NCBI GenBank assembly: GCA_049700835.1
Contig: JBNAUL010000003.1
Location: 9,775 to 73,774 of the forward strand
Reading direction: 5' to 3'
DNA: 64,000 nucleotides
Origin: Candidatus Woesearchaeota archaeon
GTDB lineage: Archaea > Nanobdellota > Nanobdellia > Woesearchaeales > WAPY01
The position numbers were made by a program. Positions 27,001 to 33,000 of the stretch are shown here, one piece after another (positions within the stretch are counted from its first letter, which is position 1; each line of letters begins with the position of its first letter).

Positions 27001-30000
27001 TATTGAAGGCAAGCGTAAATATTCTGCAGAGCATAAAAATCGTAGTAAAAGTATTTTATATTATATTTGCTTAACAGTTTTCTTCTCAAAGATTCATTGT
27101 TTCCGTACAAAATGATGGCAGCGTCTGCTTCTCTCTTGTTGGCATCAACAAAAGTGCTTGCATGAGTTCTCCTTAAAAATAAAACCTTTCTGCCTGTTAG
27201 AGCATTTATTGCAAAAGATGTTTCTCCATGAGGAGTTATTATTACCTCATCTTTGTTTGTGTTTTGAATAATGAAATTAGCTATTTCAAATTGAGCTTTT
27301 GTCAGGTCATCATAACTAAAGCCGATTTTTGACCACCTATCTTTCTTGAAATTGTTTATTTCAATAAAAAATCCACCTGCAACCAAAAGAGAAGAAAAAA
27401 TTAAAACGCCAATTTTATAAATCATTTCCTTATTAAACTTGTATATTAAATATACTCCTGAAAATGCAAGAATGCTTCTCAATAGAATGAAATTAACATT
27501 AAATGCAAAATAACCGAAAGAGGTTTTTATTAATGGTTGTGTTATTATAGGATGAATTAGTCCTAAAAATCCTGTCAAAAATAATATTTTTATTAATGAA
27601 TTTCTTTCGCTCTTGAAAGCAAATAAAGATAATATCCCTGCAATAACTAACAAGCTAATTATAGATTGATAAAAATTTTGAAAATTAAAAAAATAGTTCT
27701 TTAATGCATCAGAAATTATGCTTAAATTTCCTGAAGGACTGTAATAAATATACTCTTGCCACGGATTTAGGGTTTTTCCGTGATAATAAATGATTAGCGG
27801 AGCCCAATAAAGCAGCGCAATAGGAATTCCAACCAAAAAGATAATTAAATATTTTTTCGCTGTGTTAAAAAACAATCTTAAAGAAATCATTTTTTTTGAT
27901 TTCTTAAACTCGATTTTTTTGTTATTTGTGGTTTCATATAAAAACAATAACACTAAAAACAAAGATATACCCAAAAAAGCAGCAACATGGCTTAAACCGC
28001 TTACGCCTAAAAAAATTCCTGCAAGAATTATATTTATGAAATCAGCCTTGTTTTTCAGTTGGTTGTTGAATATGAGATAAAAACTTATTGGTTGTAACAA
28101 TATCACAACATATTTAAAAAATGATGTTGGAACGCTGGCTGGAATTCCTAAAGCATAACTTATTGCAAACAATAACGCAATTGTTTTGTCTTTGAACAAA
28201 AATCTTCCAAGAATATAAGAAAGAATGATTGAAAAGGCAACAATCGCAAGCGGGAACAGAATTGCTGCTTTTAGTATGCTTATAAAAAATATTTTTGAGA
28301 ACAAAAAGATTAAAACATAGAGCAACCATGGATAGTGCTGCCATTCATTCAAGTAATGGTTGCTCTTAAAAACAGAACCTCCATAGTAAATGTGCAGGAC
28401 ATTTCCAAAATGATAGTAAACATCTCCACCATACAGTGGGCCTGGAAGTTGTTTTAAGTCCTTTAAAATCTGAAATTCATAAACAAGTATTATTAACAAA
28501 AGAAAAATAAGAGCATAATCCTGCCAATCAAGTTTTTTGCCCAAAAAATCACCCCTAAAAATGCCGGCTTTTATCTTGTTTTTATTTTAAACACAAATAA
28601 AGTAACTCAAAGCATTTTGTTCTTTTAATTGCTTAAAAAACTTTTTTTTATGCTTATTAATCTGACTATTTCCTATCTTTAGATTATATTTATCTTTTTG
28701 CTATTGCACATAAAAAACGATTTTAATCATCAATCTTATACAGCTAAATTTTATTTATTTTACTTTCTTATTTTATTATTTTAAATTTCATTCTATTTTT
28801 AATTTTATTTTTATTCAATTCTTAAAACCTTAACCTTGAATACCAAGGTTTTATTTGCAAGTTCCCCTTCTTTATAACCTTCCTCAGGCTTTACAACAAT
28901 TTTTTTTTGTTCTCCTGTTTTCATTCCTAAAACTTGGTTTTCCAATCCCTTAATCACTTGCCCGCTTCCAACGCTGAATTTAAGAGGGCTCCTGAATAAA
29001 TAATCCTTGAAATCAGAGTTCTTTGTTACATTAAGTTTTTCAAAATTTTTTATTGAGGAATCAAAAACAGTTCCGTTTTCAAAATAACCAATATAATCAA
29101 TGGTTATTGAATCTCCTTTGCTAACAACTTCCTTTGGCTTCCAACTAACATTCCAAACATAAATGTTTGTTCCAAAAACCCCTGATTCATGGGTATAAAG
29201 CTTGAAGTGGTTCAAACCAACAGCATCCATAAAATATAATCTTGTGAATAAACTCTTGGAAATTTCTTTTGAACACCAAAATGCCATGGGTTGATCTTTG
29301 TTCAGCAAAACAACAAGGGTGTATGGAAATTCAGAATTGTTGAATTCTTTTTCTATTATGCCGTCGTTTGTTGCAAAAACAACTGATAATGGTTTAATGC
29401 TCTTGGTGTTTGTTGGAATAACAACATCCAACTTTTCCAAATCAACAATGCTTGGCAGGTATTGACCTTGAAACATGTTGACGCAGTTAAGCTTTGTTTC
29501 ATTTGCAAAGGAGCAGGTTGTTAAACCAGTTATAAAGCCAGGCCATGGAGAAACCCATGCTTCTTCTTCTTTTGAACTAAGGATTGAAACTTCGTCGTAG
29601 TATCTTCTCGCTTCCTCTTGGCTTAAATTAAGATTGTTAATCATATAATCAACAGAATTTCTTCCCATTGTTTTAACAGCATTTAGTATTTTTGCCCTTC
29701 TGAAATCCCAAAGCCCGAAATGTGCCCAAACATTTGCTTTGCCAATCATATCTTCACTAGTTATTAAATAGTCTTCAGGAGGTTCGCAATGAGTGTAATT
29801 TAATATTCTAAGAATTTTTTCATCACTAAAACCAAGGTTTCTTAAATAATTCGAAGCGTTTTCTTTAGTCATCATTATTATCTTTCTTACAACGCTTACA
29901 GAAAACTCTGTGTCATTGAATTCTTTGTCAACTTCTTCAAAAGCATTGTTTGAACCGCAATCGAGCATTCTTAAAATTGCTATGCTTTCATCCTCATCCT

Positions 30001-33000
30001 CGCTAACCAATAATCTTCCAAGCCAATAAGTTTGTGGAGAGTTTTGAGTTGCTCCGTCAGCAGTCACGCTTCTGTTAGCAAAATACTTGAACCAATGCCC
30101 AAAGTCCCACCAAGAATTTATTATTGCATTGGTGCTAGCATTTTCATTTATCTTTGTAAGTGCAGTATACCATGTTTTATTTATGCTCGGAATGAAAGTC
30201 CTTCCTGCTTCTATTCCTGCTTTCACAGGAACTATCATCAACGCAAGTATGAAAGCGAAAACAACTACCTTTACAATATAATCTTTCTTTAAATCAAAAA
30301 TCCTAGACAACTCTTTCCCAGAAAACTCAACCAATAAACCTAATTCTATTCCCAAAATCATTGTTGCAACAGGCATCAACAGAACCAAAAATCTTATACC
30401 AACTAAACTTGCATATATTGCAACAGCATACCAAACAAAAAATATTATTGGCATTAATGAATTATGAATTAAACTAAACTTTTCTTCAGAACCTTGACTG
30501 ATTTTTATTATTTTTTTGTTAAATACAATCAGCAAGAGTCCTATGAATGAAAAGCACAGAATCATTTTTTGCACAAACATGTTGCTGTAGCCATTGCTAA
30601 TAGCGCTTAGAATATCATCCCATCTACCTGCATTCAGTTCAGCAACTGTTGTGAAAATATTTGGCCATAAGGTCTTCTGCTTAACGCTTGCTTTTAGCTC
30701 TCTTGATTTCAGCGCTTCTATTGGAGCATTAAAGTAAAATTTTGGTCCTTTTAAAACGCTCACAAAAACAAATGAAAAAGCTAAATACATCAGAATGACA
30801 AGCAGGTATTTTTTTGTTGTTTTTTCCTTGAAAAAAGTCATTATTCCTAAAAAGCTTTTTTTCTTTGCAAAAACCAAATAGACTATGATTGTTAAAAAAT
30901 ATAGCACAAAAGAAATTCCTAAAATGTCAAATAGATACCACCAACCATTCCAAGAAAGGGCAAATAATCCTGTGAATAAACCGCTTAGCGCAGAATATAT
31001 TATTCTTTGCTTACTGTCCTTAGCATAAACTGCCTCTACAAACGCCCAAATTATCAGGACAGGGAACAAGATGTTGTAAATATCGTCATCAGAACCTGCT
31101 GTTCTCCTTATTACAAAAGCATTGATTGTTATGAGCAGCGATGATAAAAATCCACCATATTTTCCAGCAATTCTGTTGCCTATTAAAAAAGCAAATACTG
31201 CTATTATTAAAGACAGGATTACAGGCACATAGAAAGATGCCTGCATCAAGGTCAAACTGTTATTAAATGGCTTAAGCATTTTGTAAACAAAAACTATCAT
31301 GTATGGGTGGATTGCAGGATAAGCATAGGTTCCTAGAGGAGCAACCATCAAATTATCATAAGGTCTTCCATTTCTTATCTCGTCTCCGTACATTCCTTTT
31401 TCCAACAAATTTCTTGCATATCTGAGCCAATGATACGAGTCCAAATCTCCTAAGAAAACATATGTTTTATTTCCTATTTGGTATTGGAATTCCTTTTTTA
31501 AGTAATCAGATGTCTGCTTTACCTGTAATTCTATTTGCTCATTGTTAGTCTTTAATAAATGATTGAAATTATTTTCAACATAGGAATTCTTTTGCTCTTC
31601 AGGAAGATTAGGGAATTGCTGTTCAATCTGCGTTTTCAGGTTTTGCTTTATGTAGGAATAAACATTGTTCCTTGCAATGTCGTCCATTATTCCTAATTTT
31701 GTAGGCAACAACCTTATGTAAAGAGTAAATATTATAATTAAAATAATTATAATTAATGTTGAATGCTTGGAAAAGAAACCCTTGACTTTTCTTAAATCAA
31801 AATTTAATTCTTCTTTTTCTTCATTTTCATGATTTCTCTCTCTGCCATGTTTTTCTGTGGCTTCATCTCTGCTCGTTCTTTTCTTATTCTTCCTCTTTTT
31901 GAAAGGATTAAGTTTTGAAAAGTTAATGTTTAGTTCTTCACCATTTTCATCTTTTTCCATTAAAACCACCACCAAAGCAGTTTTTCTTTTGAATAACAAA
32001 AATTCCAATAACTTTATTAATTTTTTTATATGGTATCCCTACATTGTTTATAAATCTATTCCCAAACACCTGTTTTTGTTCTGCTCTTAAAAAAAATTCT
32101 GAAAGATATCTTAAAAATTCATCAGAATAAACCAATATTAACAATTAAAAAATAGTAAAATTTATAAAGAAATGTTCTATTTTATATTAGAACTAAAAGC
32201 AAACAAAAGAGCGGAGAGGATAAAAATGGAAGATGTTTCTAAAACAACTTTGGCAATTTTGCTTATTTTGACAATAATTCTCTCAGTTATTGGAACTTGG
32301 ACAACAATCTCAACGCTGAATAAAGTAAGCTACAAAGAACAACAAAAAAACAACAATAACGGAATTGTTTCAATGACAATAGCAAAACCGAACGATGGAT
32401 TTAAAGAAGCAATGGTAAGCCTTTCTATTGTAAAGGAAGAAAAAGGAGGTTAAAAAATGGCAAAAGAAGTTTCTAATAGAACAATAGCTTTGCTGTTGGT
32501 TTTGGCTTTGGCTATATCTGTTTTCGGAACATTTTTGAGCTTGCAAAGAATTTCAAGATTAGGAGTAACAGGATTTGCTTCAACAGGAATAACAAATCTT
32601 ACCATAGCAAGCACAAAATCAATAAATGTTCAAGTTGCAAATATTGACTTTGGCTCTGGCTATGCAACAGACGGAACAACATGCACGATGGAAAGCAATG
32701 CAACTGCTCCTGAAACAAACTGTAATGGTGCTAGTAGCGCAGGGATTGATTGGAACGAAAGGCCATTGAGCAGTTATGGGGGAAATCCATACTTTATTAT
32801 AAATAACACAGGAAACATAAATACAAATATAAGCGTTAATGCTTCTGATAATGCAACAACTTGGATTGGAAACTATGCAGGAGTTGGTGCTTGGATTGGA
32901 GGGCATGCAGCTACAGAAGCTCAGAATGCTTGCGGAACAATAAATACGACCTATCAAACTTTGGCAACAGGAGATCCTGTAGTGCTTTGCACCGGAACCG

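What a model noticed while it worked through the whole genome (the two positions that open the first line are those of the whole stretch)
28811..31960. Oligosaccharyltransferase AglB/STT3 fused to a C-terminal (extracellular) FKBP prolyl isomerase
The only STT3/AglB oligosaccharyltransferase of this genome (g00927, 1049 aa) carries a complete FKBP-type peptidyl-prolyl isomerase domain at its extreme C-terminus, after the WWDFG-containing external globular domain, so the isomerase should lie outside the membrane beside the glycosylation site. The fusion recurs in 24 other protein clusters (mostly labelled Woesearchaeota), suggesting coupling of N-glycosylation with prolyl isomerisation/folding of secreted proteins.
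Evidence so far: pfam.tsv: STT3 aa171-577 E 1e-31; STT3-PglB_core aa614-752 E 4e-9; FKBP_C aa946-1046 E 2e-21 covering hmm 5-94/94. WWDFG motif at aa 616-620 read in the sequence. find_homologous_proteins with aa780-1049: 27 clusters (query included); 25 of 27 carry both PF02516 (STT3) and PF00254 (FKBP_C), 628-1342 aa, 29-100% identity; the named ones are Woesearchaeota MAGs. Hydrophobicity scan: last hydrophobic segment at aa557-575, none between it and the FKBP domain. Paper search oligosaccharyltransferase/FKBP/archaea/AglB: none of the listed AglB papers mentions FKBP.
(Added by a program. Inside this text positions count along the whole contig: contig position 9,775 is position 1 of the stretch shown here. 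"Call 12" and the like, gene names such as g00115 and contig names such as C1 are that model's own, and its searches are not shown. The text may have been shortened before it was handed on; [...] marks where a part breaks off. The agent that wrote the report below was given it as the finding of a first reader that could run no searches.)

Follow-up and report, generated by a model that had tools for sequence, protein, structure and literature searches.

The report
Oligosaccharyltransferase with built-in external prolyl isomerase
The only N-glycosylating enzyme of this tiny archaeon carries a protein-folding (prolyl isomerase) domain on its outer end, and related archaea carry an unrelated isomerase at the same spot, which suggests that glycosylation and folding of exported proteins are physically coupled.

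Summary
Confirmed and extended. Window 28811-31960 (-) is one uninterrupted 1049-aa gene. It encodes a complete AglB/STT3 oligosaccharyltransferase (aa 56-943, all catalytic motifs present) followed directly by a 104-aa FKBP domain (aa 946-1049) with no further membrane segment. It is the only STT3 gene in a 98.7%-complete 1.07-Mb genome.

The FKBP keeps its prolyl-pocket residues in 23-24 of 24 homologues and is the second most conserved part of the protein. It lacks the IF chaperone insert. It carries a fusion-specific conserved N-K-T sequon. Its nearest free relatives have signal peptides or membrane anchors.

The arrangement spans both domains in 39 of 401 sampled genomes of the order (17 families).

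New here: in 23 other genomes of 401 (18 other families), the homologous AglB ends in a parvulin-type isomerase at the same junction. Two unrelated isomerase folds at one position argue that isomerase or foldase activity beside the transferase is what selection keeps.

The genome has no cyclophilin, no parvulin and no exported free FKBP, so this domain is its only candidate external isomerase.

Enzyme activity, the geometry relative to the catalytic site, and actual coupling to glycosylation remain untested. No paper on such a fusion was found.

The parts
28811..31960 (-). Whole gene: AglB/STT3 oligosaccharyltransferase with C-terminal FKBP, 1049 aa plus stop (28811-28813)
   Evidence: ORF list and translation; Pfam; coordinates checked by translation
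31796..31960 (-). aa 1-55: lysine/glutamate-rich N-terminal tail, predicted disordered, presumed cytoplasmic
   Evidence: pLDDT under 50 for residues 1-55; lowest conservation, mean pairwise identity 0.28
30200..31795 (-). aa 56-587: multi-pass GT-C membrane domain. Holds D174 (31439-31441), D291/D293 (31082-31090), T438-V-A-E441 (30638-30649) and R523
   Evidence: Pfam STT3; profile alignment to human STT3A places these residues on its acidic motifs, SVSE and Arg; conserved in 24-25 of 25 rows; Z 30.0 to yeast STT3
29534..30199 (-). aa 588-809: external core domain with WWDFG (aa 617-621 = 30098-30112), invariant K741, and conserved Cys668 and Cys725
   Evidence: Pfam STT3-PglB_core; motif position; column counts; most conserved region, identity 0.50
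29132..29533 (-). aa 810-943: terminal beta domain of the transferase (conserved Cys816 and Cys826), ending in the conserved Trp940 junction
   Evidence: Strands in the model; aligned to the C-terminal end of solved STT3 chains; AglBs without an isomerase end 0-30 residues after it
28814..29131 (-). aa 944-1049: short linker and FKBP-type prolyl isomerase domain without IF insert. Conserved N-K-T sequon at aa 1036-1038 (28847-28855)
   Evidence: Pfam FKBP_C E 4.2e-20; Z 14.2, rmsd 1.7 A, 92 residues to FKBP13, and Z 14.0, rmsd 1.3 A to SlyD; pocket residues conserved in 23-24 of 24 rows, sequon in 23 of 24

Best explanation
The gene encodes a bifunctional membrane enzyme.

Residues 56-943 are a complete AglB/STT3 oligosaccharyltransferase. 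It transfers a lipid-linked glycan to Asn of N-X-S/T sequons on the outer face of the membrane.

The last 104 residues are an FKBP prolyl isomerase domain, held outside the cell on a short linker after the transferase's terminal beta domain. It keeps the hydrophobic prolyl pocket but has lost the IF chaperone insert found in its free relatives.

Most likely the domain binds and isomerises prolyl bonds in the same unfolded, newly exported polypeptides that the transferase glycosylates. It would act as a tethered foldase or holdase, with the transferase bringing the substrate close.

Shown here: the architecture, the conservation, the distribution, and the replacement by parvulin in related lineages.

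Inferred: external location (by homology and sequence features), isomerase activity, and action on glycosylation substrates.
For: (1) Complete transferase.
- Pfam STT3 plus core domain.
- Z 30.0, rmsd 3.8 A over 529 residues to yeast STT3; Z 26.4 to A. fulgidus AglB.
- The profile aligns D174, D291/D293, TVAE441, R523 and WWDFG to the matching motifs of human STT3A, E 2.5e-35. Each is kept in 24-25 of 25 homologues.

(2) Genuine FKBP.
- Pfam E 4.2e-20. Z 14.2 to FKBP13 and Z 14.0 to SlyD.
- Conservation: Y956 24/24, F966 23/24, D967 24/24, G1005 24/24, F/L1006 24/24, Y1029 24/24, F1041 24/24.
- Mean pairwise identity is 0.46 for the FKBP, 0.50 for the catalytic core and 0.32-0.34 for the membrane and beta domains.

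(3) Outside the membrane.
- No hydrophobic segment after aa 587.
- The 4 sequons conserved in at least half of the rows are at 778, 962, 977 and 1036, all after the last membrane segment.
- N-K-T at 1036 is kept in 23 of 24 rows, where free FKBPs have A-G-K.
- 51 of 52 fused FKBPs form one clade (SH-aLRT 92). Its sister is a membrane-anchored free FKBP (support 83). 13 of the 14 chosen free relatives begin with a hydrophobic signal- or anchor-like stretch; P0143 does not.

(4) Isomerase function is what is kept.
- 10 clusters of homologous AglBs carry a parvulin domain at the same junction (Rotamase_3, E 1e-24 to 2e-30). Both His motifs are present in 10 of 10, and none has a hydrophobic tail.
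- In samples of 401 genomes of the order, 39 span beta domain plus FKBP (17 families) and 23 span beta domain plus parvulin (18 other families). No genome or family is in both sets.

(5) No alternative external isomerase in this genome.
- No cyclophilin and no parvulin.
- The 3 free FKBPs have no N-terminal hydrophobic segment.
- All 5 of 5 same-family genomes have the fusion, and 0 of 5 have a parvulin.

(6) Weak only: the external domain (588-943) folded against the FKBP (944-1049) scored 0.42, best of 3 controls 0.00.
- That mark was reached by 116 of 157 solved complexes and 2 of 215 mismatched pairs.
- Scores of 0.60 or under came from only 18 of those 157 and from both mismatches that passed.
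- The runs agree in at least 92% of contacts and the partner pLDDT is at least 89.
Against: - No activity, binding or topology was measured.
- The IF insert, which in SlyD-type FKBPs supplies most of the activity toward protein substrates (recalled), is absent.
- The position matching Trp59 of FKBP12 (recalled numbering) is Leu here and Phe in 20 of 24 homologues. That is the SlyD-type state, but it differs from high-activity FKBP12.
- In this family the loop before the last strand is 4 residues shorter than in the other fused forms.
- In the one solved case of an FKBP at an oligosaccharyltransferase (human FKBP11), the authors argue against a catalytic role because its pocket is buried by a partner. 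Cells lacking FKBP11 showed no GRP94 hyperglycosylation defect (passages read).
- Many genomes of the order have an AglB with no isomerase domain, so the domain is dispensable for transferase function as such.
- The tree evidence for repeated gain, loss or swap rests on FastTree.
Confidence: 0.6

Rival explanations
1. Anchor of convenience. The FKBP is a general external foldase, and AglB merely serves as its membrane anchor. There is no functional link to glycosylation.
For: The nearest free relatives are exported FKBPs with their own anchor or signal peptide. Free parvulin proteins of 340-650 aa are common in the order: 265 of 401 genomes have a parvulin match. So a tether of any kind may be enough. 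This genome has no other candidate external isomerase.
Against: Two unrelated isomerase folds were joined to the same junction of the same protein, across 35 families in total. That is harder to explain if any anchor would do. I did not survey fusions of isomerases to other membrane proteins, so this is not excluded.
Confidence: 0.25
2. Non-catalytic adaptor. The FKBP pocket binds a partner protein or a segment of the translocon or surface layer, as proposed for human FKBP11, and no isomerisation is involved.
For: In the human translocon structure the FKBP11 pocket is buried by CCDC134, and the authors call FKBP11 an adaptor. The IF insert is lost here.
Against: An FKBP-specific adaptor role does not explain replacement by parvulin with intact His motifs in 10 of 10 clusters. 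The pocket residues are kept in 23-24 of 24 rows, although that would also fit ligand binding.
Confidence: 0.1
3. Internal regulator. The domain acts on AglB itself. It could work on a proline switch in the external loop 5, or its conserved N-K-T could dock in the transferase site as a pseudo-substrate or self-glycosylation site.
For: N-K-T at 1036 is fusion-specific and kept in 23 of 24 rows. There is weak support for a defined docking of the FKBP on the external domain: score 0.42, best control 0.00 (with the calibration counts given under the best explanation).
Against: There is no direct evidence. A conserved sequon is explained more simply by ordinary glycosylation of an exposed external domain. 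No equivalent signature was sought in the parvulin forms.
Confidence: 0.04
4. Artefact: a misassembled or miscalled fusion of two genes.
For: None found.
Against: The frame is uninterrupted. The same one-ORF arrangement appears in all 5 same-family genomes, in 39 of 401 sampled genomes and in 25 of 27 protein clusters from several sources.
Confidence: 0.01

Closest known systems
AglB / STT3 / PglB oligosaccharyltransferases (GT-C fold; solved: yeast and human STT3, A. fulgidus AglB, C. lari PglB)
   Same: Whole-chain fold (Z 23.5-30.0), Pfam STT3 and core domains, acidic motifs, TVAE, Arg and WWDFG. It is the single copy in the genome.
   Different: It carries an extra FKBP domain after the normal C-terminal end. 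None of the solved chains aligned beyond model residue about 953, except loosely. It scores 43 bits against a cut-off of 450 for NCBIfam archaeo_STT3, so it is not that subfamily.
Archaeal short FKBP / SlyD-type FKBPs (M. thermolithotrophicus FKBP17, 1ix5; T. thermophilus SlyD, 3cgm)
   Same: Best sequence match among solved structures is 1ix5 (E 9e-11), which shares the insertion after the FDSS strand. SlyD gives Z 14.0, rmsd 1.3 A. Most fused forms keep the H-P-L-A-x-K-T-L motif.
   Different: The IF (insert-in-flap) domain is absent. The Gly of A-G-K is replaced by Asn, which creates a conserved sequon. The domain is covalently attached to a membrane enzyme and predicted to be external.
Human FKBP11 at the OST-A secretory translocon (PDB 9n9j; PMC12804085, passages read)
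   Same: An FKBP domain on the non-cytoplasmic side next to an STT3-type transferase. The STT3A chain of that entry aligns to this model with Z 25.2.
   Different: FKBP11 is a separate, membrane-anchored, ribosome-binding protein. It is recruited with CCDC134, which buries its pocket, and the authors regard it as an adaptor. Here the FKBP is part of the transferase chain, and no such partner is known.
AglB-parvulin fusions in the same archaeal order
   Same: A homologous AglB with the same junction after the terminal beta domain, and an isomerase as the last domain with no membrane segment after it.
   Different: The isomerase fold is unrelated (PpiC/parvulin). The fusions occur in other families of the order: 23 of 401 genomes, with no overlap with the 39 FKBP-type genomes.
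Folding-related subunits of eukaryotic OST (Ost3/Ost6, TUSC3/MagT1 thioredoxin-like subunits) and bacterial membrane-tethered isomerases at the export site (PrsA, PpiD). Recalled, not tested here.
   Same: The principle of placing a folding catalyst or holdase beside the glycosylation or export machinery.
   Different: Those are separate polypeptides. The eukaryotic subunits use another chemistry (thiol-disulfide). None is fused to the catalytic transferase.

Membership tests
AglB/STT3 oligosaccharyltransferase | Multi-pass GT-C membrane domain followed by an external globular domain | tested here: met
   Pfam STT3 E 2.7e-30 and core domain E 1e-7. Z 30.0, rmsd 3.8 A, 529 residues to yeast STT3, model range 58-941.
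AglB/STT3 oligosaccharyltransferase | Acidic motifs of the first and second external loops (motif names recalled) | tested here: met
   D174 aligns to the D-P-Y of human STT3A, and D291/D293 to its second acidic motif. Conservation: D174 in 24 of 24 rows with a residue, D291 in 24 of 25, D293 in 25 of 25.
AglB/STT3 oligosaccharyltransferase | TIXE/SVSE motif in external loop 5, and the conserved Arg | tested here: met
   T438-V-A-E441 aligns to SVSE of STT3A, and R523 to its Arg. T438, E441 and R523 are each kept in 25 of 25 rows.
AglB/STT3 oligosaccharyltransferase | WWDYG motif in the external domain | tested here: met
   WWDFG at aa 617-621. W-W-D and G are kept in 25 of 25 rows; the fourth residue is F in 21 and Y in 4.
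AglB/STT3 oligosaccharyltransferase | DK or MI motif forming the Ser/Thr pocket (recalled) | tested here: inconclusive
   A D737-M-I-G-K741 stretch has K741 in 25 of 25 rows. The profile alignment to STT3A stopped before this region, and no residue-level structural alignment was available.
AglB/STT3 oligosaccharyltransferase | Transfer of a lipid-linked glycan to Asn | not testable with these tools
   Needs an enzyme assay or glycoproteomics.
NCBIfam TIGR04154 archaeo_STT3 (archaeosortase A-associated) | Score at or above the curated cut-off of 450 bits | tested here: not met
   43.2 bits.
FKBP-type prolyl isomerase (PF00254) | FKBP fold | tested here: met
   Pfam E 4.2e-20, profile 5-94 of 94. 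Z 14.2, rmsd 1.7 A, 92 of 99 residues of FKBP13; Z 13.3 to FKBP12.
FKBP-type prolyl isomerase (PF00254) | Aromatic/acidic pocket residues (FKBP12 Y26, F36, D37, V55, I56, W59, Y82, F99; numbering recalled) | tested here: met
   By alignment to FKBP13: Y956, F966, D967, V1002, I1003, L1006, Y1029, F1041. Each is kept in 23-24 of 24 fused homologues. The Trp position is Phe in 20 and Leu in 4.
FKBP-type prolyl isomerase (PF00254) | Isomerase activity | not testable with these tools
   Needs a protease-coupled or refolding assay.
SlyD-like / archaeal IF-bearing FKBP chaperones | Insert-in-flap (IF) domain | tested here: not met
   The domain is 104 residues. The alignment to 1ix5 ends where its insert begins. 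SlyD aligns over 83 residues across chain range 1-136. A short loop replaces the insert in all 24 rows.
Extracytoplasmic protein domain | Located outside the membrane | tested here: inconclusive
   No membrane segment after aa 587. The domain follows the WWDFG domain, which is external in solved homologues. Conserved sequons occur only in this part. The nearest free relatives are exported. No experimental topology is available.

The most novel reading that the evidence does not exclude
The isomerase is an integral working part of the archaeal glycosylation machine, not merely tethered to it. It would grip or isomerise proline-containing segments of chains as they leave the export channel. That would set the time window and the conformation in which sequons reach the catalytic site.

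This solution evolved with two unrelated isomerase folds (FKBP and parvulin) in one archaeal order. It prefigures the FKBP11-bearing OST-A translocon of eukaryotes.

The fusion-specific N-K-T next to the FKBP pocket would then be a self-glycosylation or pseudo-substrate site.
Probability: 0.25. Interest if true: 0.88.

Novelty: new variant of a known kind. Interest (0 to 1): 0.75.

Why it matters
Little is known about how archaea fold proteins outside the membrane, or how glycosylation is timed relative to folding in any prokaryote. Here the catalytic transferase and a prolyl isomerase are one polypeptide. An independent parvulin version occurs in sister lineages. This is a natural fusion-based argument that the two activities work together.

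It gives a compact, single-gene system for testing coupling of N-glycosylation and folding. It also offers an archaeal counterpart to compare with the folding-related partners of the eukaryotic transferase (FKBP11, thioredoxin-like subunits). For genome-reduced DPANN-type archaea, it identifies what may be their only external folding catalyst.

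Tried and rejected
- **Geometry.** The distance and orientation of the FKBP pocket relative to WWDFG/E441 could not be measured, so 'beside the glycosylation site' stays untested.
- **AU test.** The test of whether all 52 fused FKBPs can be one clade did not finish in the time allowed. 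I report only that 51 of 52 form a clade with SH-aLRT 92.
- **DK/MI motif.** It could not be assigned.
- **Complementary free FKBP.** I first treated G021 and G033 as relatives with a plain AglB. One search showed that both carry the parvulin fusion, so the test 'do lineages without a fusion have an exported free FKBP?' rests on fewer genomes. In G014, G015, G022, G023 and G030, the 9 free FKBPs recovered had no N-terminal hydrophobic segment. One further fetched stretch (L023, from G015) gave no FKBP hit. So no compensating exported FKBP was found.
- **Split form.** No FKBP gene lies within about 1.4 kb downstream of the 6 plain AglB loci L012-L017.
- **Truncated listing.** The family-wide listing of FKBP hits in the order was cut off at 150 rows. 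Counts were therefore taken from the two-domain protein queries and are lower bounds. For example, G230 has an FKBP in a 1163-aa frame but missed the E-value threshold.
- **Literature.** Ten full-text searches found no paper describing an AglB/STT3 fused to FKBP or parvulin. For most hits only the listings were seen. Subscription-only papers are not in the library.
- **Expression.** Evidence from sequencing runs was not sought.

Full report
**What is in the window**

On the minus strand one open frame runs from 32008 to 28811 (1065 aa from TTG). The first ATG, at 31960, gives the 1049-aa protein of the finding, with no internal stop. The homologues' N-terminal consensus supports the ATG start. 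The coordinates in the finding are valid window coordinates; the window is contig 3, 9775-73774, of a 1,071,587-base, 4-contig genome rated 98.66% complete.

Pfam finds three domains:
- STT3, aa 171-577, E 2.7e-30.
- STT3-PglB_core, aa 614-752, E 1e-7.
- FKBP_C, aa 946-1046, E 4.2e-20, profile 5-94 of 94.

The last hydrophobic stretch is about aa 557-586. After residue 600 the highest 19-residue hydropathy mean is 0.84.

The genome has a single STT3 locus and four FKBP loci. One is this gene; the other three encode small free proteins of 176, 159 and 231 aa with IF inserts.

**The transferase part is complete**

The structure model was built on a 25-row alignment. Its first row, P0002, is identical to the window's protein at 1047 of 1049 residues. 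The model has mean pLDDT 85.8 and pTM 0.79, and only residues 1-55 are disordered.

Structural matches:
- Yeast STT3: Z 30.0, rmsd 3.8 A, 529 residues, model range 58-941.
- Human STT3A: Z 29.5.
- A. fulgidus AglB: Z 26.4.
- PglB: Z 23.5-24.6.

Foldseek agrees (PglB E 1.3e-19). The normal transferase chain therefore ends at about residue 943.

A profile of the alignment matches human STT3A at E 2.5e-35. It puts D174, D291/D293, T438-V-A-E441, R523 and WWDFG on the corresponding STT3A motifs. Each is kept in 24-25 of 25 homologues. The DK/MI pocket motif could not be assigned, although K741 is invariant. The protein is not a member of NCBIfam archaeo_STT3: it scores 43 bits against a cut-off of 450.

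**The FKBP part is a real, constrained FKBP of a particular kind**

- Residues 941-1049 align to FKBP13 with Z 14.2 (rmsd 1.7 A, 92 residues) and to SlyD with Z 14.0 (rmsd 1.3 A, 83 residues).
- By sequence the nearest solved protein is the archaeal FKBP17 (1ix5, E 9e-11). It shares the insertion after the F-D-S-S strand, which FKBP13 lacks.
- The IF chaperone insert of SlyD-type FKBPs is missing. A short loop replaces it in all 24 fused homologues, and in this family the loop is 4 residues shorter still.
- The pocket residues are kept. In recalled FKBP12 numbering these are Y26, F36, D37, V55, I56, W59, Y82 and F99. Here: Y956 24/24, F966 23/24, D967 24/24, F or L at 1006 24/24, Y1029 24/24, F1041 24/24.
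- Mean pairwise identity across the fused family is 0.46 for the FKBP and 0.50 for the catalytic core. It is 0.32-0.34 for the membrane and beta domains and 0.28 for the N-terminal tail. The domain is under constraint comparable to the active-site region.

**Why it should be outside**

This is inference, from four lines of evidence.

1. The FKBP follows the WWDFG domain with no further membrane segment. That domain is on the non-cytoplasmic side in every solved homologue to which the whole chain aligns.
2. Only four N-X-S/T sequons are conserved in at least half of the homologues: positions 778, 962, 977 and 1036. All lie after the last membrane segment, and three are in the FKBP.
3. N1036-K-T is present in 23 of 24 fused FKBPs. 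Free FKBPs, including the three of this genome, have A-G-K at that place.
4. The closest free FKBPs in a library-wide search mostly begin with a signal peptide, lipobox-like sequence or membrane anchor.

For the fourth point I built an FKBP-domain tree of 80 rows and 109 columns:
- 52 fused domains;
- 14 free single-FKBP proteins chosen (multi-FKBP proteins left out), 13 of which begin with a hydrophobic signal- or anchor-like stretch (P0143 does not);
- 14 cytosol-type FKBPs of this genome and relatives.

In this tree 51 of 52 fused domains form one clade (SH-aLRT 92), and its sister is a membrane-anchored free FKBP (support 83). The exception, P0028, has a different architecture and may be a separate fusion. 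Four cysteines of the external domain (668, 725, 816, 826) are conserved in 24-25 of 25 rows. I could not check whether they pair.

**Distribution**

- A search of 1.84 billion representatives with aa 800-1049 gave 4155 hits at E 1e-3 or better and 25 at 1e-30 or better. Mapping domains on all stored proteins gave 52 near-full-length AglB-FKBP proteins.
- All 5 of 5 genomes of the same family carry the one-ORF fusion.
- In a sample of 401 genomes of the order, 55 matched the two-domain query at E 1e-24 or better. Of these, 39 span both the beta domain and the FKBP, in 17 families. The other 16 match the beta domain only.
- In a sample of 401 genomes of the class, 14 matched and 13 span both domains, all in this same order. 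These are lower bounds.
- Six plain AglB loci from other families end 0-30 residues after the beta domain, within their contigs. None has an FKBP gene in the 1.4 kb downstream.

**The key new result: a second, unrelated isomerase at the same place**

Several close AglB homologues lacked FKBP but had 110-200 extra C-terminal residues. Pfam shows that these tails are parvulin (PpiC-type) isomerase domains. Rotamase_3 scores E 1e-24 to 2e-30 in 5 of 5 tails of 117 to 196 residues tested; 3 AglBs with shorter tails (51-78 residues) scanned in the same call gave no match. A further search added 6 clusters annotated with STT3 plus parvulin families, one of them a query already counted, for 10 clusters in all.

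In all 10, the two histidine motifs of parvulins (S-H-I-L and G-Y-H) are present, the junction follows the same W-x-(I/V)-D-W end of the beta domain, and the tail has no hydrophobic segment.

In a sample of 401 genomes of the order, 23 genomes in 18 families have a match spanning beta domain plus parvulin in one frame. None of these genomes or families is among the 39 genomes and 17 families of the FKBP type. The listed handles coincide between the samples, but I did not verify that the samples are identical. Together that is 62 of 401 genomes.

On a FastTree of 85 AglB cores (52 FKBP, 10 parvulin, 23 none; the isomerase domains were removed before alignment), the three states are interleaved. 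The tree needs 17 changes against a shuffled mean of 29.1, and at least 5 changes for parvulin are forced by well-supported branches. The rows were harvested with isomerase-bearing queries, so the proportions mean nothing, and FastTree support should be treated with caution.

The simplest reading is that the C-terminal isomerase module has been gained, lost or exchanged repeatedly, and that isomerase function is what it contributes.

**Genome context**

This genome has no cyclophilin and no parvulin, and 0 of 5 same-family genomes have a parvulin. Its three free FKBPs have no N-terminal hydrophobic segment. The AglB-borne FKBP is therefore the only candidate external prolyl isomerase found.

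The gene sits in a glycosylation cluster. Downstream on the same strand lie a 600-aa multi-pass protein, a family-2 glycosyltransferase and a UDP-GlcNAc 2-epimerase. Several very large Ig-like surface proteins, likely clients, are encoded nearby.

**Mechanism proposed**

AglB glycosylates sequons in exported chains while they are still flexible. The fused FKBP is held on a short linker at the end of the external domain. It binds or isomerises prolyl bonds in the same chains, either speeding their folding after modification or holding them open for modification.

Loss of the IF insert fits a domain that no longer has to capture substrates by itself (the role of the IF insert is recalled). Whether the pocket faces the catalytic site is unknown.

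Folding the external domain and the FKBP as two chains gave only weak support for a fixed docking:
- Score 0.42, best of 3 controls 0.00.
- That mark was reached by 116 of 157 solved complexes and 2 of 215 mismatched pairs. Scores of 0.60 or under came from only 18 of those 157 and from both passing mismatches.
- The runs agree in at least 92% of contacts, and the partner pLDDT is at least 89.

**Comparison with what is known**

The nearest precedent is human FKBP11. It is a separate membrane-anchored lumenal FKBP that joins the OST-A translocon with CCDC134. Its pocket is buried there, cells lacking it showed no GRP94 hyperglycosylation defect, and the authors favour an adaptor role (PMC12804085, passages read). 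That case argues for caution about catalysis. The parvulin replacement argues the other way for the archaeal proteins.

Thioredoxin-like OST subunits and bacterial PrsA/PpiD are conceptual parallels (recalled).

Ten full-text searches found no description of an AglB/STT3 fused to FKBP or parvulin. A 2024 review of archaeal N-glycosylation contains none of the words isomerase, fusion, fused or chaperone (term search only).

**Verdict**

This is a new variant of a known enzyme. It is one instance of a wider, apparently undescribed pattern in which AglB carries a terminal external prolyl isomerase of either of two folds. Activity, topology, geometry and coupling remain to be tested.

Noticed in passing
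Related loci, e.g. L032 (G259:C4) and L034 (G044:C2); proteins P0089, P0096, P0126, P0147, P0148, P0174-P0177, P0181: AglB homologues of the same order carry a parvulin (PpiC-type) isomerase in place of the FKBP at the same C-terminal junction. This occurs in 23 of 401 sampled genomes and in 18 families that do not overlap with the FKBP-type families.
   Followed up: yes
window 26742-28544 (-): Directly downstream of AglB lies a 600-aa multi-pass membrane protein with a soluble C-terminal part. It has no Pfam match at E 0.01 or better. Language-model look-alikes include clusters where a minority of members carry PMT_2 or STT3 families, so it may be a second GT-C-type glycosyltransferase. This is a lead only.
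   Followed up: partly
window 23331-26626: A glycosylation gene cluster lies beside AglB: a family-2 glycosyltransferase (25889-26626, -), a UDP-GlcNAc 2-epimerase (24778-25902, -, E 2.3e-112) and another family-2 glycosyltransferase (23331-24242, +).
   Followed up: partly
window 7350-13550 (+), 35523-38102 (+), 38134-42639 (+), 42672-45062 (+): Very large ORFs of 2066, 859, 1501 and 796 aa. The 1501-aa one has bacterial Ig, He_PIG and cadherin-like domains. They are probable surface proteins and plausible clients of the transferase.
   Followed up: no
window 33349-34572 (+): A 407-aa ORF has only a sub-threshold Pfam match to the translocon-associated protein TRAP alpha (E 0.034, 13.8 bits against a cut-off of 24.7). 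It is probably chance, but curious next to an oligosaccharyltransferase.
   Followed up: no
proteins P0068, P0076 and others: The protein library holds proteins made of several tandem FKBP domains (for example 758 aa with 6 FKBP stretches) among the closest free relatives of the fused FKBP.
   Followed up: no
protein P0028 (1126 aa): An outlier AglB-FKBP. Its FKBP lacks the insertion after the FDSS strand, is followed by about 180 more residues, and groups with a free exported FKBP, not with the other 51 fused domains. It may be an independent fusion.
   Followed up: partly
order-wide: Parvulin domains occur in 265 of 401 sampled genomes of this archaeal order. Many lie in 340-650-aa frames that could be membrane-tethered foldases, and others in frames of about 100 aa. 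Family f1, which holds this genome, has none in 5 of 5 genomes.
   Followed up: partly
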